From contig OZ024747.1 in NCBI GenBank assembly GCA_964016885.1, positions 63,302,001 through 63,366,000 on the forward strand: a DNA stretch of 64,000 nt, read 5' to 3'. Source of the DNA: Eledone cirrhosa (Eukaryota). Shown piece after piece: positions 4,664 to 56,268 of this stretch. The position numbers and the translations under genes were made by a program. Every line of letters starts with the position of its first letter. Within the stretch, counting starts at the first letter, position 1. The notes below the pieces were generated by a model that ran no database searches, had not been told where the DNA came from, and was given only the letters and a program-made list of their open reading frames with translations.

Positions 4664-4910
4664 TGTCCATTTTCCATGCTAGGATAGCTAGAACTGGCTA
4701 TCCCTTAGTGAGACAAATGGCTGGAGTACCATGTTTCACTCACACTGCTGATTTTGGCTTGGTTTCTACTGCTGAATGCCCTTCCTAATGCCAACCACAT
4801 TTACAGTGTGTGCTGGGTCCTTTTTGTCATGTCACCTATACAAACATTTTACAGTGTGGACTGGGCACTTTTGGTCATGACTCCTACACGACCACTTTAC
4901 AGTGGCTATG
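4664..4910 (-). mobile_element. Degenerate RTE 3'UTR-type tail element
   Basis: Shares GCCCTTCCTAA..CCAACC..TTTACAGTG..TGCTGGG motifs with 53766-54020. Confidence 0.6.
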
Positions 4911-10939: not shown

Positions 10940-11200
10940 AATTGGCAAATCCAAGAAATGCCCCAGGCAGTAGAAACTCTAGAACTGCCCCAGGCAGTAC
11001 AAACTCTGGAACCGATCCAGACAGTACAAGCCCTACAACTGATCCAGGCAGTACAAACCCTAGTACTGCCCCAGGCAGTAGAAACCCTAGAACTGATCCA
11101 GGCTGGACACTCTTTAGAGCTGACTTAGTTTGTGCAAACTCTAAAACTTACTTAGACAATACAAATATAAGAACTGCTCCATGCAGTGCAAAAACTAGAG
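10940..11200. repeat. 30-bp minisatellite (~8 degenerate units, CCAGGCAGTA(G/C)AAAC(T/C)CTAGAACTG..)
   Basis: 30-bp periodicity, giving the 10-aa repeat ORF 10942-11211. Confidence 0.85.
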
Positions 11201-11571
11201 CTCATTGTTGAAGTGCTTTCATTTTCAAAAGCTTTTCATATTTATTAGCTAATTAACAATTTTCATTATGTCTATTGATTTCTTATTTTCATTGTTCCTG
11301 AAAACCTGATTAAATATATGGCACTCACATGAAAGTAAATAATTAACTTTAAATAGCAATGTTTTCTATACTTTGTCTTTTGTAAATATTTTAATGTTTC
11401 TAGAAATTAGTAAGATGTCCTATTTACAACTTTCACTCGAAGAATTATTTTCTTCAGATCTTTAAATAATTATTGTGGTTGGTGAAAAAAGAACGGAATA
11501 TTAGAACTCTGGCAAAATGTCTTACTGTGTTTAGTTACCTCCTCCTTGTTACATGGTTCAAGTATTATATA

Positions 11572-14500
11572 ATCATCATTATCATCATCATCATTATCAT
11601 CATTGTTTTATGTCCATTTTTCCTCCTTCTCATCTGATCATCATCATCATCATCTCATCATGATCACCATCATTGTTTTATATACATCTTCATCATCATC
11701 ATCACCATCATTCTTTTATGTCCATTTTCATCATCATCATCATCATCACCATCATTCTTTTACGGCCATTTTTCATCATCATTATCATCATTATCATCAT
11801 CTGATCATCATCATCATCAACATCATCATTGTTTTGCGTCCATTTTTCAATAACGTGCATTGATTAGCTGAGTCTTCTCTGGTACAGCATTTTTTGTTTG
11901 TTTCTTTCCTTTGTCATCTCCTTTGTGAAGTGTAGTTACTTGAGGTCAGAGTTGACCATCTCTGTGGGGTGTAGTTACTTGAGGTTAGAGATGACCATCT
12001 CTGTGAGGTGTAGTTACTTGAAGTTAGAGTTGACCATCTCTGTGGGGTGTAGTTACTTGAGGTTAGAGATGACCATCTCTGTGAGGTGTAGTTACTTGAG
12101 GTTAGAGTTGACCATCTCTGTGGGGTGTAGTTACTTGAGGTTAGAGTTGACCATCTCTGTGGGGTGTAGTTACCTGAGGTTAGAGTTGACCATCTCTGTG
12201 GGGTGTAGTTACCTGAGGTTAGAGTTGACCATCTCTGTGGGGTGTAGTTACTTGAGGTTAGAGTTGACCATCTCTGTGGGGTGTAGTTACCTGAGGTTAG
12301 AGTTGACCATCTCTGTGGGGTGTAGTTACCTGAGGTTAGAGTTGACCATCTCTGTGGGGTGTAGTTACTTGAGGTTAGAGTTGACCATCTCTGTGGGGTG
12401 TAGTTACTTGAGGTTAGAGTTGACCATCTCTGTGGGGTGTAGTTACTGTGGTTAGAGTTGACCATCTCTGTGGGGTGTAGTTACTTAAGGTCAGAGTTGA
12501 CCATCTCTGTGGGGTGTAGTTACTTGAGGTTAGAGTTGACCATCTCTGTGGGGTGTAGTTACCTGAGGTTAGAGTTGACCATCTCTGTGGGGTGTAGTTA
12601 CCTGAGGTTAGAGTTGACCATCTCTGTGGGGTGTAGTTACTTGAGGTCAGAGTTGACCATCTCTGTGAGGTGTAGTTACCTGAGGTTAGAGTTGACCATC
12701 TCTGTGGGGTGTAGTTACCTGAGGTTAGAGTTGACCATCTCTGTGGGGTGTAGTTACCTGAGGTTAGAGTTGACCATCTCTGTGGGGTGTAGTTACCTGA
12801 GGTTAGAGTTGACCATCTCTGTGGGGTGTAGTTACCTGAGGTTAGAGTTGACCATCTCTGTGGGGTGTAGTTACCTGATATTAGAGTTGACCATCTCTGT
12901 GGGGTGTAGTTACCTGAGGTTAGAGTTGACCATCTCTGTGGGGTGTAGTTACCTGAGGTTAGAGTTGACCATCTCTGTGGGGTGTAGTTACCTGAAGTAA
13001 GAGTTGACCATCTCTGTGGGGTGTAGTTACCTGAGAAGAGTTGACCATCTCTGTGAGGTGTAGTTACCTGAGGTTAGAGTTGACCATATCTGTGGGGTGT
13101 AGTTACCTGAGGTTAGAGTTGACCATCTCTGTGAGGTGTAGTTACCTGAGGTTAGAGTTGACCATCTCTGTGAGGTGTAGTTACTTGAAGTCAGAGTTGA
13201 CCATCTCTGTAGGGTGTAGTTACCTGAGGTTAGAGTTGACCATCTCTGTGGGGTGTAGTTACCTGAGGTTAGAGTTGACCATCTCTGTGGGGTGTAGTTA
13301 CTTGAGGTTAGAGTTGACCATCTCTGTCAGGTGTAGTTACTTGAGGTTAGAGTTGACCATCTCTGTGGGGTGTAGTTACCTGAGGTTAGAGTTGGCCATC
13401 TCTGTGAGGTGTAGTTACTTGAGGTCAGAGTTGACCATCTCTATCAGCTGTAGTTACTTGAGGTCAGAGTTGACCATCTCTGTGGGGTGTAGTTACTTGA
13501 GGTCAGAGTTGACCATCTCTGTGGGGTGTAGTTACTTGAGGTCAGAGTTGACCATCTCTGTGGTGTGTAGTTACCTGAGGTTAGATTTGACCATCTCTGT
13601 GAGGTGTAGTTACCTGAGGTTAGAGTTGACCATCTCTGTGGGGTGTAGTTACTTGAGGTTAGAGTTGACCATCTCTGTCAGGTGTACTTACTTGAGGTTA
13701 AAGTGGACCATCTCTGTGGGGTGTAGTTACTTGAGGTTAGAGTTGACCATCTCTGTGAGGTGTAGTTACCTGAGGTTAGAGTTGACCATCTCTGTGGGGT
13801 GTAGTTACCTGAGGTTAGAGTTGACCATCTCTGTGAGGTGTAGTTACCTGAGGTTAGAGTTGACCATCTCTGTGGGGTGTAGTTACCTGAGGTTAGAGTT
13901 GACCATCTCTGTGGGGTGTAGTTACCTGAGGTCAGAGTTGACCATCTCTGTGAGGTGTAGTTACCTGAGGTAAGAGTTGACCATCTCTGTGGGGTGTAGT
14001 TACCTGAGGTTAGAGTTGACCATCTCTGTGGTGTGTAGTTACTTGAGGTTAGAGTTGACCATCTCTGTGGATTGTAGTTACCTGAGGTTAGAGTTGACCA
14101 TCTCTGTGGTGTGTAGTTACCTGAGGTTAGAGTTGACCATCTCTGTGGATGGTAGTTACCTGAGGTTAGAGTTGACCATCTCTGTGGAGTGTAGTTACCT
14201 GAGGTTAGAGTTGACCATCTCTGTGGATGGTAGTTACCTGAGGTTAGAGTTGACCATCTCTGTGGATTGTAGTTACCTGAGGTTAGAGTTGACCATCTCT
14301 GTCAGGTGTAGTTACCTGAGGTTAGAGTTGACCATCTCTGTGGGGTGTAGTTACCTGAGGTCAGAGTTGACCATCTCTGTCAGGTGTAGTTACCTGAGGT
14401 TAGAGTTGACCATCTCTGTGGGGTGTAGTTACCTGAGGTCAGAGTTGACCATCTCTGTGGATTGTAGTTACCTGAGGTTAGAGTTGACCATCTCTGTGGT

Positions 14501-17500
14501 GTGTAGTTACTTGAGGTTAGAGTTGACCATCTCTGTGGGGTGTAGTTACCTGAGGTTAGATTTGACCATCTCTGTGGGGTGTAGTTACCTGAGGTTAGAG
14601 TTGACCATCTCTGTGGGGTGTAGTTACCTGAGGTTAGAGTTGACCGTATCTGTGGGGTGTAGTTACCTGAGGTTAGAGTTGACCATCTCTGTGAGGTGTA
14701 GTTACCTGAGGTTAGAGTTGACCATCTCTGTGAGGTGTAGTTACTTGAGGTCAGAGTTGACCATCTCTGTAGGGTGTAGTTACCTGAGGTTAGAGTTGAC
14801 CATCTCTGTGGAGTGTAGTTACTTGAGGTTAGAGTTGACCATCTCTGTCAGGTGTAGTTACTTGAGGTTAGAGTTGACCATCTCTGTGGGGTGTAGTTAC
14901 CTGAGGTTAGAGTTGGCCATCTCTGTGAGGTGTAGTTACTTGAGGTCAGAGTTGACCATCTCTGTGAGGTGTAGTTACTTGAGGTCAGAGTTGACCATCT
15001 CTGTGGGGTGTAGTTACTTGAGGTCAGAGTTGACCATCTCTGTGGGGTGTACTTACTTGAGGTCAGAGTTGACCATCTCTGTGGTGTGTAGTTACCTGAG
15101 GTTAGAGTTGACCATCTCTGTGAGGTGTAGTTACCTGAGGTTAGAGTTGACCATCTCTGTGGGGTGTAGTTACTTGAGGTTAGAGTTGACCATCTCTGTC
15201 AGGTGTAGTTACTTGAGGTTAGAGTTGCCCATCTCTGTGGGGTGTAGTTACCTGAGGTTAGAGTTGGCCATCTCTGTGGGGTGTAGTTACCTGAGGTTAG
15301 AGTTGACCATCTCTGTGGATGGTAGTTACCTGAGGTTAGAGTTGACCATCTCTGTGGGGTGTAGTTACTTGAGGTTAGAGTTGACCATCTCTGTGAGGTG
15401 TAGTTAACTGAGGTTAGAGTTGACCATCTCTGTGGTGTGTAGTTACCTGAGGTTAGAGTTGACCATCTCTGTGGGGTGTAGTTACCTGAGGTTAGAGTTG
15501 ACCATCTCTGTGAGGTGTAGTTACCTGAGGTTAGAGTTGACCATCTCTGTGGGGTGTAGTTACCTGAGGTTAGAGTTGCCCATCTCTGTGGGGTGTAGTT
15601 ACCTGAGGTTAGAGTTGGCCATCTCTGTGGGGTGTAGTTACCTGAGGTCAGAGTTGACCATCTCTGTGAGGTGTAGTTACCTGACGTTAGAGTTGACCAT
15701 CTCTGTGGGGTGTAGTTACCTGGGGTTAGAGTTGACCATCTCTGTGGGGTGTAGTTACCTGAGGTTAGAGTTGACCATCTCTGTGAGGTGTAGTTACCTG
15801 AGGTAAGAGTTGACCATCTCTGTGGGGTGTAGTTACCTGAGGTTAGAGTTGACCATCTCTGTGGTGCGTAGTTACTTGAGGTTAGAGTTGACCATCTCTG
15901 TGGATTGTAGTTACCTGAGGTTAGAGTTGACCATCTCTGTGGTGTGTAGTTACTTGAGGTCAGAGTTGACCATCTATGTGGGGTGTAGTTACCTGAGGAT
16001 AGAGTTGACCATCTCTGTGGTGTGTAGTTACTTGAGGTTAGAGTTGACCATCTCTGTGGAGTGTAGTTACCTGAGGTTAGAGTTGACCATCTCTGTGGAT
16101 GGTAGTTACCTGAGGTTAGAGTTGACCATCTCTGTGGATTGTAGTTACCTGAGGTTAGAGTTGACCCTCTCTGTGGGGTGTAGTTACCTGAGGTCAGAGT
16201 TGACCATCTCTGTCAGGTGTAGTTACCTGAGGTTAGAGTTGACCATCTCTGTGGGGTGTAGTTACCTGAGGTCAGAGTTGACCATCTCTGTGGATTGTAG
16301 TTACCTGAGGTTAGAGTTGACCATCTCTGTGGTGTGTAGTTACTTGAGGTTAGAGTTGACCATCTCTGTGGGGTGTAGTTACCTGAGGTTAGATTTGACC
16401 ATCTCTGTGGGGTGTAGTTACCTGAGGTTAGAGTTGACCATCTCTGTGGGGTGTAGTTACCTGAGGTTAGATTTGACCATCTCTGTGGGGTGTAGTTACC
16501 TGAGGTTAGAGTTGACCATCTCTGTGGGGTGTAGTTACTTGAGGTTAGAGTTGACCATCTCTGTGAGGTGTAGTTACTTGAGGTCAGAGTTGACCATCTC
16601 TGTGGGGTGTAGTTACCTGAGGTTAGAGTTGACCATCTCTGTGGGGTGTAGTTACCTGAGGTCAGAGTTGACCATCTCTGTGGAGTGTAGTTACCTGAAG
16701 TTAGAGTTGACCATCTCTGTGAGGTGTAGTTACCTGAAGTTAGAGTTGACCATCTCTGTGGGGTGTAGTTACCTGAGGTTAGAGTTGACCATCTCTGTGA
16801 GGTATAGTTACCTGAAGCTAGAGTTGACCATCTCTGTGAGGTGTAGTTACTTGAGGTTAGAGTTGACCATCTCTGTGAGGTGTAGTTACCTGAGGTTAGA
16901 GTTGACCATCTCTGTGGGGTGTAGTTACCTGAAGTTAGAGTTGACCATCTCTGTGGAGTGTAGTTACCTGAGGTTAGAGTTGACCATCTCTGTGAGGTGT
17001 AGTTACTGAGGTCAGAGTTGACCATCTCTGTGGGGTGTAGTTACCTGAGGTTAGAGTTGACCATCTCTGTGGTGTGTAGTTACTTGAGGTTAGAGTTGAC
17101 CATCTCTGTGAGGTGTAGTTACTGAGGTCAGAGTTGACCATCTCTGTGGGGTGTAGTTACCTGAGGTTAGAGTTGACCATCTCTGTGGGGTGTAGTTACC
17201 TGAGGTTAGAGTTGACCATCTCTGTGGGGTGTAGTTACCTGAGGTTAGAGTTGACCATCTCTGTGGGGTGTAGTTACCTGAGGTTAGAGTTGACCATCTC
17301 TGTGGGGTGTAGTTACCTGAGGTTAGAGTTGGCCATCTATGTGGTGTGTAGTTACCTGAGGTTAGAGTAGACCATCTCTGTGGGGTGTAGTTACCTGAGG
17401 TTAGAGTTGACCATCTATGTGGTGTGTAGTTACCTGAGGTTAGAGTAGACCATCTCTGTGAAGTGTAGTTACCTGAGGTTAGAGTTGACCATCTATGTGG

Positions 17501-18365
17501 TGTGTAGTTACCTGAGGTTAGAGTTGACCATCTCTGTGAGGTGTAGTTACCTCAGGTTAGAGTTGACCATCTCTGTGGGGTGTAGTTACCTGAGGTTAGA
17601 GTTGACCATCTCTGTGGGGTGTAGTTACCTGAGGTTAGAGTTGGCCATCTATGTGGTGTGTAGTTACCTGAGGTTAGAGTAGACCATCTCTGTGGGGTGT
17701 AGTTACCTGAGGTTAGAGTTGACCATCTATGTGGTGTGTAGTTACTTGAGGTCAGAGTTGACCATCTCTGTGAAGTGTAGTTACATGAGGTTAGAGTTGA
17801 CCATCTATGTGGTGTGTAGTTACCTGAGGTTAGAGTTGACCATCTCTGTGGGGTGTAGTTACCTGAGGTTAGAGTTGACCATCTCTGTGAGGTGTAGTTA
17901 CCTGAGGTTAGAGTTGACCATCTCTGTGAGGTGTAGTTACTTGAGGTCAGAGTTGACCATCTCTGTGGGGTGTAGTTACTTGAGGTCAGAGTTGATCACC
18001 TTTGTAGGATGTAGTTATCATCTCTACCACCACCTTTGGCTAGTGGAGTTACTTGATGTCAGTGTTCACCACCTTTGTCCTTTTCTTTTTTGATCTGTTA
18101 CTTTTATGACTTTTTCTGCTTGGAACTCCTGGAATCTCCTCATTACATCACCATACCAACACAAATGTTCTCTCCTGTAGTTAACATCTGATTCCTTCTC
18201 TGTTCATTTTACCATTGGATGTGTAATGTTAGTGAGCATGAATTAGTGTAATGTTAGTGAGCATGTTGTTCATGCATTACACATCCAATGGTGCATGCTA
18301 AATTCATTTCACTCCAATCTTCACACATTCTCCCCATTCACTGCCCATGTTCCACTTTGCATGAA
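11572..18365 (-). mobile_element. Degenerate 3' part of an RTE LINE interrupted by the 39-bp array; (GAT)n tail at 11572-11830
   Basis: Minus-strand translation 18365-18140 (SGTWAVNGENV*RLE*NEFSMHHWMCN...GIRC*LQER/LCWYGDVMR) matches the 54066 ORF; 11960-11870 (EMVNSDLK*LHFTKEMTKE...AVPEKTQ) matches the 55284 ORF; ends GGACGCAAAACAATGATGATG. Confidence 0.8.
11925..18010. repeat. 39-bp minisatellite, ~156 units, consensus GTTGACCATCTCTGTGGGGTGTAGTTAC(C/T)TGAGGTTAGA
   Basis: Direct reading; homogeneous units with shared variant positions and a few 1-2 nt indels (near 12447, 13035, 17006, 17122). Confidence 0.98.
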
Positions 18366-18931
18366 TTAAGTTTACTTGCTCTCTCTCTGTCACCCTCTCT
18401 CACCCCCTCCTCTCTTTCTCCACCCACCCTCTCACCCCCTCTCTACCCACCCTCTCACCCCCTCTCTACAGATTTGATAAACTAATTTATCTGTGATGTA
18501 AATTCAGCACAATGTAATATCTCTAATTGTCCCATTGTGAAGATATTGAGAAATTTAAAGTTATGTAATCAACGAAGTATCCAATAGGATTACTGGTAAT
18601 TTACTGCAAATAATTGGTGGAAAAGAGAAATGTAATTCTTAGAAAGAACAGATTATATCAGAATTTGTGGCAGACAGAGATAATGCTACCAATAAGACAT
18701 TATATGGTGCTGCCTGTGCAAAATATTTAGTTTTGAAGCTACTTTAATGGAACTTTAACTAGGATCGTTGTCTACTAAACTTTATTAAAGACTGCCAATA
18801 TCAAGTTTTGATTTCACTGTGGATTTACTGATAGGAAATTAGATTGTCACTAGATCTTAGTTTTAATGACTTACATTTAGGTTTACAAGAGAGAGAGAGA
18901 AAGACAGAGAGAAAGTGCAAGAAAGAAATAG

Positions 18932-23422: not shown

Positions 23423-24879
23423 CATCTTGCTAAATCATAAATGTAAAACATGATAAATGTAATCCATAAATGATAAATGCAAAACAAATTGAACAGATTT
23501 TTATTTTAACGGGTTAAAATGACTTGCCTTAATTTAAATGCTTCCTTTCCCATCGTTATTTCATATCAAGTCACTTGCCAAATAAATACAACTCCATAAA
23601 ATGAATGTTCTATTTGCAAAAATTAATTTTTTAGTTATTTAATCCATGAAATAAAATAGAGTTTTCAAATCTGTTTAATATGTAACATTCATGATTTCTG
23701 TTAAACAGGTTTATCTTATATAGTTAATTTATATTTGAAGATTGATAAATAAAGATAGAAAGTAAAAAGTGATTAGGTCCACATGAGTAGTTACATTCCA
23801 AATAATGTTGCTTTCATGTTGGGGAATCTGATTGTGTTGTAAACAACAGCTTACTTTGAAATCATGGAGAAAATTTCTGAAAATAATAGTAAAAACATAC
23901 AATACATTGATATCTGTGATGAATGTGTATTAATGTAAATATGTTTAACTTGTTTGTGCGTGAGCATCTGTATGGATATGTGTGTATGCACACACATATA
24001 TATATATATAAAGTGTATACTGACATATTCATGTGTGTATGTGTGTGTCTGCATGTATATATAAATACATATATGTGCATATATATATATATATATAAAG
24101 TGTATGTTGACATATTCATATGTTTCTGTATATGAATGTATGTATGTGTGTGCAAATATATATATTTATATATATAGTGAGTGTGTGTGTAGTTGTGAGA
24201 GCTTCAAATGTTGTTTAGGTTGCTATATAAATGAGAGCAACTTGCCTTTTATCTAACATGCTTTCAGCAAAATCTTGCCACTACCACTACTCAAAAAATA
24301 ATCTAATATTAGAAATATTAGAAATATTAGAAACTATATCAGCAACGTTTCCAAGTATATATACCTTATATTTCATCCACTGTTGCTTTACTTTAACACA
24401 AACTTCAACTTCATAATTTCAATGAAATTTTCTAATTACAAATGAATAAAAAAATTTTCAAAGATTTCTGATTTCCATTCACTGCACATGTTCCTGCAAT
24501 TTAGGAAGTTGTGTCAGAAATCTTTGAACAACAAAAGCCTAAGAAAGTCTAAAAGGCATTTCTTTGATTATTGAAGCTGTAAGTTTTACAAGGCATATTT
24601 TGTATTCCATTCAAAACTGGCAAAACTGAGTTTTTTCAGTCAATCTCTAGAACTATATATTTCTTCAAGAAAGCAATTTTTTTTTAATGCACATACTTCT
24701 AACACAGCATATTTTGTCAATATATATCAATACCTTCATCACCGTCACCATCATATTATATTCAATATTTGTTCTGCTTGTATGGGTTAGGCATTAGGCT
24801 GATTACCTTTAGCACAGTGTCTTGTCACTTCTTGCATTCTTTTGTCACCACCTTCATGAGGTTCAGCTTCCTGTGATCA

Positions 24880-25350
24880 GTTCTTCCTCTATCTCCCCGC
24901 CCCATCACTGTCTTGAATCCCCCTCACCTCTCCTCCTGCCTTCCTCTCCACTTTCCTCACATCTTCCCCTGTGTGCCTCACTCCTTCCTGTCCCCCTACC
25001 CCTCTTTCCCCCCACTTCCTCGAACTACTTCCACTTCCCCCACATCTTCTGTCTCCCCACACTTTCCTCACTTAATCCCAAACTTCTTTGTCTCCCTCCT
25101 TCTTCTGTCTAGCCTCATGTCATTGTCTACCCCTTCTCCATTGTGTACTCCCCTCTCTCTTCCTACTTCTTGTATTCTTCTCCCCATTTTCCTAACTCCT
25201 CCCACTTCCTGTATTCCCCTCTACTCTCCTGTCCCCTCCTATTTTCCTGTTTCCTTCCTCTTTCCTGTCTCCTGTCACTTCCTTCATATGGCTCCTCTAT
25301 ATCTACCACTCCTTATCTATGCTTCCCTTTCTGTAAACCCCTCCTTTATA
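24880..25350. repeat. Pyrimidine-rich low-complexity tract
   Basis: About 470 bp dominated by C/T on the + strand. Confidence 0.85.
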
Positions 25351-43859: not shown

Positions 43860-44255
43860 AGAGACAGGCACACTAGGAATAGAATGTATGTTGTAATAGA
43901 GAGACATACATATTAGGAAGAGAATGTATATTGTTATACAGAGACAGACAGACAAGCAAGATTGTAGAGAAAAATAGAGAAAAACAAACTTGGAAAACTG
44001 TATACTGTAATAGAGAGAGAGAGAGAGAAGCAGACTAACATAACTATAATAAAGAGAGAGAGACTAACAAAACTGTATTTATTTTAAGAGGGAGAGAAAG
44101 AGAGAGAGACTAACAAAACTGTATTTATTTTAAGAGGGAGAGAAAGAGAGAGAGACTAACATAACTGTATTTATTTTAAGAGGGAGAGAAAGAGAGAGAG
44201 ACTAACAAAACTGTATATACTGTAATAAACAGAAAGAGAGAGACTAGAAAGACTA
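43860..44255. repeat. Degenerate GA-rich minisatellite (best units 46 bp, 44057-44215)
   Basis: ACTGTATTTATTTTAAGAGGGAGAGAAAGAGAGAGAGACTAACA x3 plus decayed units. Confidence 0.8.
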
Positions 44256-45249: not shown

Positions 45250-45402
45250 AACCCACAGACTACCAGCCTATCCACAGATTACCCACATACCATCTGCCCA
45301 CCCACAGACCATCAGCTCACCCACAGACCACTAGCTCACCCACAGATCACTAGCTTACCCACAGACCATCAGCCCACCCATAGGCCACCAGCTCACCCAC
45401 CC
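45250..45402. repeat. ~19-20-bp minisatellite (CCCACAGACCA(T)CAGCTCA)
   Basis: About 8 units, direct reading. Confidence 0.85.
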
Positions 45403-47551: not shown

Positions 47552-48466
47552 TAGCAGTAAAGCCCGGCGTTGCTCGGGGTCGCTCAGTAGCTGTGTTAAA
47601 GTTACAATGTTAAGTTTCTTTCTTGGCTTAAAAACTGTAGTGTCTACTGTGCAGACTTGCATGTGGTGTTTTTGATTAATATTCCCTCAACCAACAATAT
47701 GCCTTATGAAGTTAAGAAAACATAACGATAACCCGAATGTTATAACAAAAGAGGATGCTGGGGATAGAAACTGCACTGGTTATTTATTAACAAAGATCGA
47801 AAATGTAAACACTGCAACGCAGAGAAAAACATTAGCGTAACCAAATTATCAGTTATGTCTGTCTGCACGCCTATATCACCTCTCTGCACGACTATCTGTC
47901 TGCACGCCTATATCACCTCTCTGCACGACTGTCTGTCTGCACGCCTATATCACCTCTCTGCACGACTGTCTGTCTGCACGCCTATATCACCTCTCTGCAC
48001 GACTGTCTGTCTGCACGACTGTCTGTCTGCACGCCTAACGACGAAATATTTGCTTGTTTTACGTAGTCTTTAAATAGACTTGTTTTCAAGTAAAAATATT
48101 GTTTTAAAATGCTTTTAAATGGAAATGAAGCAAAACGGAAGCTTGTGTTCGAACTGATGAATTTTGCTGGCTCGACAACTGTTCGTGTATTGTGTTAATG
48201 TCATTTTAAACGCTGAGAAAGCCAGCGTAATTTTTTACGTAAGACGCTCAATGTAAACAGAACAAAGGGAAATAACTGATAATTTACGCTCAAAAATCGA
48301 TACATTATATTCGATTTCATCACATAGGGTGGGTCAATTTGAAATATTTTTTTTCCGATGTCTTCGCTAGGGCTCAATGTACAAGTATAGCAATTTCGGT
48401 GCAGTTCCGTCAGAGATTCTAAGAGGAGATGTGTGCCAAAAATCGATAGACAGACAGACAACCATA

Positions 48467-52479: not shown

Positions 52480-52730
52480 ATGTATAGAGGTCTCCATATG
52501 TTGGCCTATCATAGCTGTTTTGCCATGCATGAAAGTGTTTTATAGGTCCTCTTCAACACAGAATCTCACCACTTGTGTTCATTTATCATCTCCACAGTGA
52601 AATTCAGTGTTTTGAGACCAGCTTTCACTACCTCTGTCCAAATTTTCCTCAGTCTTCCTCTACTGTTTTCCTTTCACTGGGAACTTTTGGTATTTCATCA
52701 CCCATCACTCACCATGCATAACCATTGCAT
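52480..52730 (-). mobile_element. Degenerate RTE C-terminal fragment
   Basis: SRGRLRKIWTEVVKAGLKTLNFTVEMINEHKW*DSVLKRT. Confidence 0.7.
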
Positions 52731-53012
52731 GTGCATGGTTGTTCCATCATGGCATGGAGGAAGAATTCATTATAATGCAAGTCGCTACTTATTTGGAGTC
52801 ACTGTCCATGCCACCCTCATACTGCTGGCATGGTTTCTCCAATTGGATATACTTTCAAACACTAACCTCTTTATAGGTACACTATATTACAAGGTACAGT
52901 ATATTGTGGCACTAACGTTAGACAACTTGAAATTTTAAATGTTGACTTTTAGCATGTAAGGATGCATTTTTACCTGCAACATACCACCAGTCAACAGAAG
53001 AATTGTGATATG

Positions 53013-53765: not shown

Positions 53766-54883
53766 TCATCATCATCATCATCACCGTTTTACGTCCGTTC
53801 TTCCATGCTAGCATGGGTTAGACGGGTTGTCCTGTTGTGGGCAGTGTCTGGTCGGCTGACCATGCCTTGCTCATACAGGAACTGATCTGGCTTGATTTCT
53901 ACAGCTGGATGCCCTTCCTAACACCAACCTCATTTACAGTGAGTGCTGGGTGCTTTTTCGTGGCGCCTACACGTCCACTTTACAGTGTGGGCTGGGTGCT
54001 TTTTTTGCCGTGGCACCTCCACGGCCACCTTGCGGTGGGGGGGGGGGGCATATTGTTTATATGCTTCAGCATGTACCCATGGGAGGTCGGGTACCCTGTA
54101 TTACTGCGTGACGCCAGAAGTCACGGTCGTGTGTCATTGACTTTGAGAGGTGTAGTTGGGTAAATTCGGCTTTTATCACCTCATCCCAAGTCATCTTGGG
54201 TCTCCCCACTCCGCGGTTTCCATCAACTTCTAGTGCTCTGCACCTTTTTATGCAGCTGTCATCCTTCATACGCATCACATGTCCATACCAGCGTAACCGC
54301 CTCTCCTGCACGCAGCATTTGATTCCTCTTATGCTCAGTCTCTCTCTCAATTCCTTTATGCTTTGTCGTTCACGTATATTACTGTTACACATCCATCGGA
54401 GCATGCAGGCTTCGTTTCTCTCTAATCTACGTAAGTCTTCCACCTTCAGCGCCCAGGTCTCACTACCATGCAACATCGCTGTTCGGATACACGCATCATA
54501 CAGTCTGCCTTTCATTTTGAGGGAGAAGCCTTTTGCAGCTAGCAGTGGTAGTAGTTCCCTAAACTTCTTCCATCCCGTTCTTACCCTAGTTATTGTACTT
54601 TCTGAGCACCCACCTCCGTTGCTAATTCGGTCACCTAGGTAGCAGAAGCTGTCTACTGTTTCTACAGGGCCCTCCCAGAGATTGGTGGTACTTGTTTCCT
54701 GTGGCTGTTTGCTTGCTGTTTCAGCACAGCTGCTGCATGTGAATCCTACATTCTTAATTAAGCTTCCTGAGATCCCGCTACATCTCTTGTGTACCCATTG
54801 TTTGCATTTGGGGCAGAGAATGGAGTTCCTACCTACACCTTTCCTACATACTGAGCAAGGCCATTTCCCTTTATATTTCCCAT

Positions 54884-55297: not shown

Positions 55298-55505
55298 ATT
55301 GCCAGTTGAAGGAAGACGTGGTAGAGGTAGACCACGAAAAACATGGGCGGAGGTGGTGAGAACAGACCTCAGATCATTGAAGCTCACGGTGGAGATGACG
55401 AAGGACCATGACGAGTGGAGAGATGCTGTGCTGAATAAGACCCGTCCCACCCTGGCAAGCAGGGAAAAGCAGACGTAAAATGATGATGATGATGATGATG
55501 ATGAT
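55298..55505 (+). mobile_element. RTE 3'-terminal fragment with (GAT)n tail
   Basis: VEGRRGRGRPRKTWAEVVRTDLRSLKLTVEMTKDHDEWRDAVLNKTRP. Confidence 0.88.
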
Positions 55506-56009: not shown

Positions 56010-56268
56010 ATCTCTAGGGTGGGTAAAATTACCGAGATCCATGGACGAGTTTTCTCCAGCGGTCTCTGTCCCTCATTATCGTTGCCATGTCCTGCGTCTC
56101 CAACAGACCAGTGTCTGTCCTTAGGGCATTAACATCTGTTAACCTTGGTCTTCCTCTTCCAGTGTGTCCATGCAGGGGCTCCCACAGGAGCACTGAGTGC
56201 AGTGTCAACTCTGGATGCTGGTGAACATGTCCAGCTAACCTCAGTCTCCTCTGTGCTACTCTTGAATA
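56010..56268 (-). mobile_element. 3' fragment of another RTE-group LINE family
   Basis: RVAQRRLRLAGHVHQHPE...VLLWEPLHGHTGRGRPRLT...MRDRDRWRKLV. Confidence 0.85.

What the first reader, a model, noticed from the sequence alone, without database searches (positions are those of the whole stretch)
11860..18365. 6.1-kb minisatellite born from 13 codons of an RTE LINE C-terminus
On the minus strand the 39-bp unit translates EMVNS(N/D)L(R/K)*LH(P/L)T, aligning to EVVRTDLRSLKLT in the RTE fragment at 55350-55388. Flanks continue the LINE in register: ...RLE*NEFSMHHWMCN...WYGDVMR upstream, KEMTKE...AV.EKT plus the (GAT)n tail downstream. The unit is bounded by GAGGTG/GAGATG (E-V...E-M) microhomology, a plausible seed for slippage. 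Progenitor, seed and product are all readable in one window.
Basis: partly seen in the sequence, partly recalled or inferred. Interest (0 to 1): 0.75.

Follow-up and report, generated by a model that had tools for sequence, protein, structure and literature searches.

The report
Minisatellite grown inside a dead LINE
About 158 head-to-tail copies of a 39-letter piece of a jumping gene's coding end sit in register inside one old, broken copy of that gene, and they likely grew on the spot from a short chance repeat; this is a clear but ordinary case of mobile DNA seeding a tandem repeat.

Summary
The array is real: 6,152 bp (11927-18078, minus strand), 158 units of about 39 bp, found at one locus. 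Collapsed to one unit it aligns collinearly with an RTE-like LINE 3' end across both junctions. The 55.3-kb fragment is a young cousin subfamily (unit 23/39), not the parent; an older subfamily A fits better (28-30/39; downstream flank 77/94 against 55/89). GAGGTG and GAGATG lie 42 bp apart, so they cannot alone give a 39-bp unit; the 39-bp-spaced repeat is ACAAAGG, exact at both array ends. First and last units share two rare changes, one a TAA stop, so duplication likely followed decay. Variant maps show 8-, 39- and 47-unit block duplications, pointing to recombination-type growth. Such arrays are common here: 5 of 109 sampled old-copy loci carry other LINE-derived arrays, about the rate of flanking DNA. 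The scan has noted similar arrays elsewhere in this genome. Side lead: a 30-bp unit from the adjacent LINE segment forms near-identical arrays at 7 loci, likely by copying between sites. Verdict: new member of a known kind, low interest.

The parts
18079..18375 (-). 5' part of a 5'-truncated, decayed RTE-like LINE copy (subfamily A), C-terminal coding region upstream of the array
   Evidence: nhmmer 18042-18359 against the A profile, E 3.3e-26; tblastn 18356-18273. An orthologous contig in run X4 covers 18147-18381. The 5' end is approximate.
18212..18265 (+). Fold-back rearrangement inside the LINE flank: a 29-bp inverted copy (18240-18212) of the W-M-C-N-V segment, preceded by a 20-bp partial duplicate (18265-18246)
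   Evidence: Read directly from the sequence; appears as an insertion in the alignment
18072..18078 (-). Left arm of the 7-bp direct repeat ACAAAGG (10/12 identical over 12 bp with the right arm), at the start of unit 1
   Evidence: 0 of 88 family copies have an exact run of 6 or more at 39-bp offset here; the maximum is 5.
17967..18078 (-). Three lead units (39, 34, 39 bp) with AAG-GTG heads; unit 1 differs from the last unit at 8 of 39 positions
11927..17966 (-). Bulk array: 155 units, 56 types, mean pairwise difference 6.3%. A TAA stop in the LINE frame is in 151 of 151 full-length units. Block duplications at offsets of 47, 39-40 and 8 units.
11920..11926 (-). Right arm ACAAAGG, where the LINE resumes (T-K-E-M-T-K-E)
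11830..11926 (-). Rest of the LINE 3' end; 77/94 identical to subfamily A, 58/91 to B, 55/89 to the 55-kb copy
   Evidence: nhmmer E 4.5e-33
11570..11829 (-). (GAT)n tail interleaved with about five degenerate copies of the LINE's last ~20 bases
   Evidence: TRF periods 3 and 38; sequence
55298..55505 (+).
   Evidence: 98-99% identical copies at 39 other listed places; unit 22-23/39

Best explanation
This is a single-locus minisatellite sitting in register inside a dead, 5'-truncated copy of an old RTE-like LINE, and it likely arose there after insertion by a duplication between two short repeats 39 bp apart, then likely grew by recombination-type copying of blocks of units. Steps. (1) Shown: the locus is a subfamily-A LINE 3' end with one 39-bp segment repeated 158 times. 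(2) Shown: the family carries a cryptic repeat at 39-bp spacing (8/12 in the consensus); at this locus it is 10/12 with 7 bp exact. (3) Inferred: misalignment there, by slippage or unequal exchange, made the first doublet after the copy had picked up private mutations. (4) Shown: 8-, 39/40- and 47-unit blocks are duplicated, and end units keep ancestral bases. Inferred: growth and homogenisation from the interior by unequal exchange or gene conversion. (5) Inferred: no function; neutral repeat turnover in a genome where such arrays arise often.
For: Collinearity across both junctions. Unit 28-30/39 to subfamily A, 23-25/39 to B, 22-23/39 to the 55-kb copy. 150 of 151 genome-wide matches to a 28-base unit pattern lie in this array; the other is a single-unit LINE copy. 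No other locus has the 14-mer doubled at 24-54 bp, and there is no family-type 39-bp triplet. First and last units share C15 (1 of 61 A copies) and the stop-making T28 (3 of 61). Block at offset 47 scores 32.5 against a shuffle maximum of 15.9. Short-read contigs of run X1 match 17966-18883 without a difference and hold unit contigs at depth 40-448 against 5.3 for the flank. Flanking repeats of about 7 bp are the commonest size in human TE-derived arrays of this class (PMC3389668).
Against: The exact 7-bp arm may be a result of array turnover, not its cause: the bulk units keep the family's G at position 4 (ACAGAG, 144 of 151), so the seed at birth may have been only the weaker imperfect repeat; also 15 of 61 A copies have A there. 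Exact repeats of 7 bp or more at 20-60 bp spacing occur in 48 of 58 old copies that have no array, so a seed is not sufficient. Shared rare bases in the end units could come from later conversion. The unexpanded site was not seen: the orthologous contig in organism B leaves the window sequence at 18147. The offset-39 block (15.8) only equals the shuffle maximum. The subfamily consensus came from copies picked with a pattern taken from this locus, which inflates identity in the unit's 3' half; the flank comparison beyond it is less affected. X1 may be the sample the window was assembled from.
Confidence: 0.82

Rival explanations
1. One reading: a jump between GAGATG and (G/A)AGGTG made a 42-bp unit, then a 3-bp loss gave the 39-bp unit that amplified.
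For: Bulk units begin ACA-GAG-ATG, like the downstream E-M codons. Degenerate unit 2 contains a GAGATG.
Against: The two hexamers are 42 bp apart. None of 155 bulk units is 42 bp. Units 1-3 have AAG-GTG heads at 39-bp phase. G-to-A at that position is common in single family copies, 17 of 61, so ATG needs no chimera.
Confidence: 0.08
2. The doublet was made at insertion by reverse-transcriptase template slippage near the 3' end and expanded later.
For: The same copy has reiterated 3' termini in its tail and a fold-back inversion. Five other old copies carry old 96-108-bp duplications over this region (72-84% alike). PMC3389668 suggests initiation can accompany retrotransposition.
Against: First and last units share two rare changes, including a stop. 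0 of 29 young copies hold an array of 3 or more units, and only two hold 2-copy duplications.
Confidence: 0.06
3. The array was imported from another site by ectopic conversion or retrotransposition, as seems likely for the neighbouring 30-bp family.
For: A 30-bp unit from the next LINE segment forms near-identical arrays at 7 loci, so arrays can apparently move in this genome.
Against: No donor or sister array was found. The unit is as decayed as its own flanks (72-77% against 82% to A) and shares private bases with unit 1.
Confidence: 0.03
4. Assembly artefact that inflates a short repeat.
For: No read set spanning the whole array was examined, so the exact length is unverified.
Against: 56 distinct unit types and non-identical duplicated blocks. 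High-depth unit contigs in X1.
Confidence: 0.01

Closest known systems
TE-derived single-locus minisatellites in human (Ahmed and Liang 2012, PMC3389668; read parts 1-3 of 4 of the text, supplements not read)
   Same: Unit is a piece of a TE, expanded in place; flanked by a ~7-bp direct repeat, like 300 of their 7,276 arrays; single locus, like 5,747 of 5,932 clusters.
   Different: Source is an invertebrate RTE-like coding end, not Alu, L1 or ERV; 158 units, where most of theirs have 2-3.
Haber-Louis model / microhomology-mediated tandem duplication (PMC6947457 passages; PMC13167724 abstract and opening; Haber and Louis 1998 itself not read)
   Same: A single-copy segment bounded by a 5-10-bp repeat duplicates, then expands by slippage, conversion or unequal crossing-over.
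   Different: Here the pre-duplication state is inferred from paralogous LINE copies, not observed, and the exact arm may postdate the birth.
LINE-derived satellites and TE-derived minisatellites tabulated in reviews: CR1/HinfI of chicken, LINE-1/PROsat, MaLR/Ms6-hm, B1/(GGCAGA)n (PMC6947457 and PMC9659126, passages and tables seen)
   Same: A tandem repeat made from an internal piece of a retroelement.
   Different: The word RTE occurs 0 times in either main text. This array is one 6-kb locus, not a dispersed or centromeric family.
Octopus RTE LINEs such as RTE-2_OV (Petrosino et al. 2022, PMC9115989, passages)
   Same: Single ORF with endonuclease, RT and a zinc finger; a microsatellite starts at the ORF end. 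The young cousin subfamily here has the same layout.
   Different: No sequence comparison with RTE-2_OV was made. The finger here scores as PHD-like (Pfam PF00628); theirs is described as C2H2. That this genome is an octopod is an inference from its features and an earlier scan note.

Membership tests
RTE-clade LINE | One long ORF with APE-type endonuclease then RT, no separate ORF1 (definition recalled; also as described in PMC9115989) | tested here: met
   Tested on the young cousin subfamily, not on subfamily A itself: the 3.1-3.2-kb element in L189 has Exo_endo_phos_2 (E 5e-8) and RVT_1 (E 2e-29) in one frame split by one stop, the ORF starting about 80 bp after the shared 5' end
RTE-clade LINE | Very short 3' UTR ending in a microsatellite | tested here: met
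   (GAT)n follows the ORF end in the A consensus, in the 55-kb copy and at this locus
RTE-clade LINE | RT groups with reference RTE elements in a tree | not tested
   No reference RTE sequences at hand. PDB hits are R2 and L1 ORF2p only; atlas clusters are RVT_1+PHD without clade names. Hence 'RTE-like'.
RTE-clade LINE | Target-site duplication around the copy | not tested
   Both ends abut low-complexity sequence; no formal search was run
TE-derived minisatellite (Ahmed and Liang criteria) | Unit of 20 bp or more, GC of 40% or more, 70% or more like a TE consensus or overlapping a TE | tested here: met
   39 bp; GC 46-48%; 28/39 bulk and 30/39 last unit to the A consensus; embedded in the copy
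TE-derived minisatellite (Ahmed and Liang criteria) | Units 95% or more alike | tested here: inconclusive
   96.2% to the array consensus, 93.7% pairwise, TRF 93%: depends on the measure
Haber-Louis / microhomology-mediated duplication | 5-10-bp direct repeat at both ends in unit phase | tested here: met
   ACAAAGG at 18078-18072 and 11926-11920
Haber-Louis / microhomology-mediated duplication | The same repeat present in the unexpanded ancestral allele | tested here: inconclusive
   The organism-B contig diverges at 18147, before the unit; family copies show at most 5 exact bases
Multi-locus or mobile minisatellite family | Same unit in arrays at other loci | tested here: not met
   (tight patterns; a strongly diverged sister array could be missed)

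The most novel reading that the evidence does not exclude
The dead 3' end of this old RTE-like family is a nursery of kilobase minisatellites, and some of them spread between chromosomes by being copied into homologous dead LINE copies or by riding the LINE's 3' tail. The 30-bp unit next to this one sits at 7 loci with one shared rare variant; 3 are in register inside separately decayed copies. The 39-bp array would be a large member that has not yet spread, and the family would be a tagged natural experiment on how arrays are born and move.
Probability: 0.35. Interest if true: 0.5.

Novelty: new member of a known kind. Interest (0 to 1): 0.24.

Why it matters
The locus itself matters little: it is one more TE-derived minisatellite with no shown function. 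Its use is as a legible case. Because many unexpanded paralogues give the ancestral sequence, the order of events (insertion, decay, first doublet, interior homogenisation, kilobase block duplication) can be read from one site. It may also be a highly variable marker (untested). The broader point, if it holds, is that arrays of tens to hundreds of units arise in old DNA of this genome at roughly one per 10-13 kb sampled, and that at least one LINE-derived unit seems to move between loci. Searches of the paper library found no paper holding octopus, genome, RTE and minisatellite together and two unrelated papers for cephalopod, tandem repeats, minisatellite and genome assembly. The library lacks most subscription papers, and the repeat library of PMC13282606 was not examined.

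Tried and rejected
1. The 55-kb fragment as progenitor: rejected. 2. GAGGTG/GAGATG as direct seed: rejected, 42-bp spacing. 3. This 39-bp site as a family hotspot: no second case, nor among 88 copies. An earlier scan note describes another 39-bp LINE-derived array; a look-up by sequence found no look-alike and I could not compare the units. 4. LINE sequence as specially array-prone: 6 arrays in 56.7 kb of old LINE sequence against 16 in 207 kb of flank, 10.6 against 7.7 per 100 kb. Two of the 6 (L151, L161 at those coordinates) are not supported as LINE-derived by the unit test and one counted outside (L074) is, so about 5: no clear enrichment. The samples were picked by similarity, not at random. 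5. Coding potential: other frames of the array are open for up to 477 codons, which follows from a stop-free 39-bp unit; the LINE frame has a stop in every unit and 4 units shift frame; no evidence of a gene. ORFs outside the array were listed but not searched, so a host intron is neither shown nor excluded. 6. Unexpanded ortholog: run X4 (organism B) holds the unique flank at 28 differences in 432 bases and the LINE 5' part, then runs on for 145 unlike letters at 18147; only one single-unit paralogue contig lies on the units. Inconclusive; a hole in contigs proves nothing. RAD runs X5 and X6 did not cover the junction. No RNA holder was listed. 7. Clade assignment by PDB and atlas: uninformative.

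Full report
Observation. TRF finds a 39-bp array at 11930-18017 (156.2 copies, 93% matches). On the minus strand it runs from 18078 to 11927, 6,152 bp: three divergent lead units (39, 34, 39 bp), then 155 bulk units, 151 of them 39 bp long. The quoted translations and the (GAT)n tail are present. The window is G000:C7:63302001-63366000 in a 3.0-Gb animal assembly. That it is an octopod is my inference from genome features and an earlier scan note; I did not determine it.

Parent element. A 28-base unit pattern with up to 2 mismatches has 151 matches in the genome, 150 of them in this array. The other is a single-unit LINE copy on C6. A 32-base pattern spanning the last unit and the downstream flank matched 161 places, 100 listed. 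I analysed 88 distinct loci from that list, leaving out the array itself, 2 rows within loci already held, 2 near-identical partner rows and the last 7 rows. They sort into subfamily A (61), B (23) and unassigned (4). The last unit matches A at 30/39, B at 25/39 and the 55-kb fragment at 23/39; the downstream flank matches at 77/94, 58/91 and 55/89. A copies average 81% to their consensus over that part (57 copies), so this copy is a typical old member. The 55-kb fragment belongs to a young subfamily with copies 98-99% identical. A near-full young copy has an endonuclease, an RT and a PHD-like finger in one frame and ends in (GAT)n, the layout described for octopus RTE elements (PMC9115989, passages). 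No RT tree was made, so I write RTE-like.

Collinearity. Collapsed to one unit, the locus aligns to a first consensus of the old copies at 294/417, score 309 against a maximum of 141.5 in 500 shuffles; each of the three parts also beats all shuffles. With the A profile, the upstream side reaches position 398 and the downstream side starts at 363, an overlap of one unit. The upstream flank has a 29-bp inverted copy with a 20-bp partial duplicate and a deletion of about 24 bp; the tail holds about five repeats of the LINE terminus.

Seed. GAGGTG and GAGATG are 42 bp apart in the 55-kb copy and in consensus A, and no bulk unit is 42 bp. At 39-bp spacing the family has an imperfect repeat (8/12 in the consensus). 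At this locus the two ends match at 10/12 with ACAAAGG exact; none of 88 family copies has more than 5 exact bases there. Two cautions: bulk units keep the family's ACAGAG, so the exact arm may have arisen during turnover; and exact 7-bp repeats at 20-60 bp spacing occur in 48 of 58 old copies without arrays.

Timing and growth. First and last units differ at 8 of 39 positions but share two bases that are rare in the family: C15 (1 of 61) and T28 (3 of 61), which makes the TAA stop found in 151 of 151 full units. The simplest reading is a first doublet made after the copy had begun to decay, long before the recent homogenisation (6.3% pairwise in the bulk). The first and last bulk units carry all three ancestral bases at the variable columns; interior units mostly carry none or one. 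A 21-unit block recurs 47 units (1.83 kb) away (score 32.5; maximum of 200 shuffles 15.9), a 7-unit block at offset 8 (19.1), and a weaker one at offset 39-40 (15.8). Difference between units barely rises with distance (2.26 to about 2.5 bases). This fits unequal exchange or conversion better than unit-by-unit slippage, as reviewed in PMC3389668 and PMC6947457.

Independent data. Run X1 has a 988-base contig identical over 17966-18883 and unit contigs at depth 40-448 against 5.3; it may be the source sample. Run X4, labelled as another organism, holds the unique flank at about 94% and the LINE 5' part, so the insertion likely predates that split. Its contig leaves the window sequence at 18147 and no multi-copy unit contigs appear, which is only a weak hint that the array is lineage-specific.

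How unusual. Among 109 old-copy loci, 5 carry other LINE-derived arrays of 4 or more units (28 bp x10, 29 x13, 30 x58, 43 x5, 139 x4), and 5 carry old duplications of 96-108 bp over the same region. Array density inside old LINE sequence is close to that of the flanks (10.6 against 7.7 per 100 kb), and 29 young copies have none; numbers are small and the sample is not random. The scan's earlier, unreviewed notes list eight similar cases in this genome; I use them only as context.

Side lead. The 30 bases just downstream of this unit form arrays at 7 loci on 5 contigs: 25, 58, 9, 249, 135, 8 and 5 units. All share CTGGTC where the A consensus reads CTCATC; that variant was found once in 37 scored A copies, probably in the array-bearing copy, and in two related single copies on C9. 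Three arrays are in register inside A copies whose flanks are 83-85% like the consensus; four lack an in-register upstream flank; a 24-bp deletion unit is shared by several. Independent birth from decayed copies should give different units, as it does for the 39-bp array, so copying between loci is likely. No flank tree was built, and an unseen young source element is not excluded.

Verdict. A real single-locus minisatellite, likely born in place in a dead RTE-like LINE by a known mechanism. New member of a known kind; interest 0.24.

Noticed in passing
L186:1034-2773; L229:6562 to L230:4339; L231; L232:5042-5630; L228:2016-2244; L236; L237: A 30-bp unit (with a 24-bp variant) from the LINE segment just downstream of this unit forms arrays at 7 loci, up to 7.8 kb, all with the same rare variant; likely copied between loci.
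   Followed up: partly
L082, L085, L163, L168, L177: Old 96-108-bp duplications covering the same LINE region in five separate copies; the consensus has an 8-bp repeat CAAGTGGA at about that spacing, a possible built-in hotspot.
   Followed up: partly
L108:1021-1319; L074:1530-1908; L233; L225; L227; window 18212-18291: The W-M-C-N-V segment of the LINE seeds arrays of 28, 29, 16, 31 and 54 bp at five other loci, and is the segment inverted in this copy's flank.
   Followed up: partly
window 4792-4904; L061:1364-1934; L072:67-916; L077; L078; L100: A 48-bp tandem repeat recurs at many loci; a similar motif lies at the 5' end of the young LINE in L189.
   Followed up: no
window 54069-54872 (-): A 268-codon stop-free C-terminal fragment of a further LINE subfamily with a PHD finger (PF00628, E 2e-6); a 98.5% identical copy is in L045.
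   Followed up: partly
window 52507-52753, 24718-24884 (-); 56017-56259 (-): More decayed LINE 3' fragments; the first resembles subfamily A (E 1e-40), the last is a more distant family.
   Followed up: partly
window 10946-11103, 47856-48017, 44051-44216, 45281-45400: Small minisatellites of 27, 37, 46 and 19 bp; the first two have no overlap with the LINE profiles.
   Followed up: no
L106:2566-3020: An 84-bp period array that looks like tandem C2H2 zinc-finger codons.
   Followed up: no
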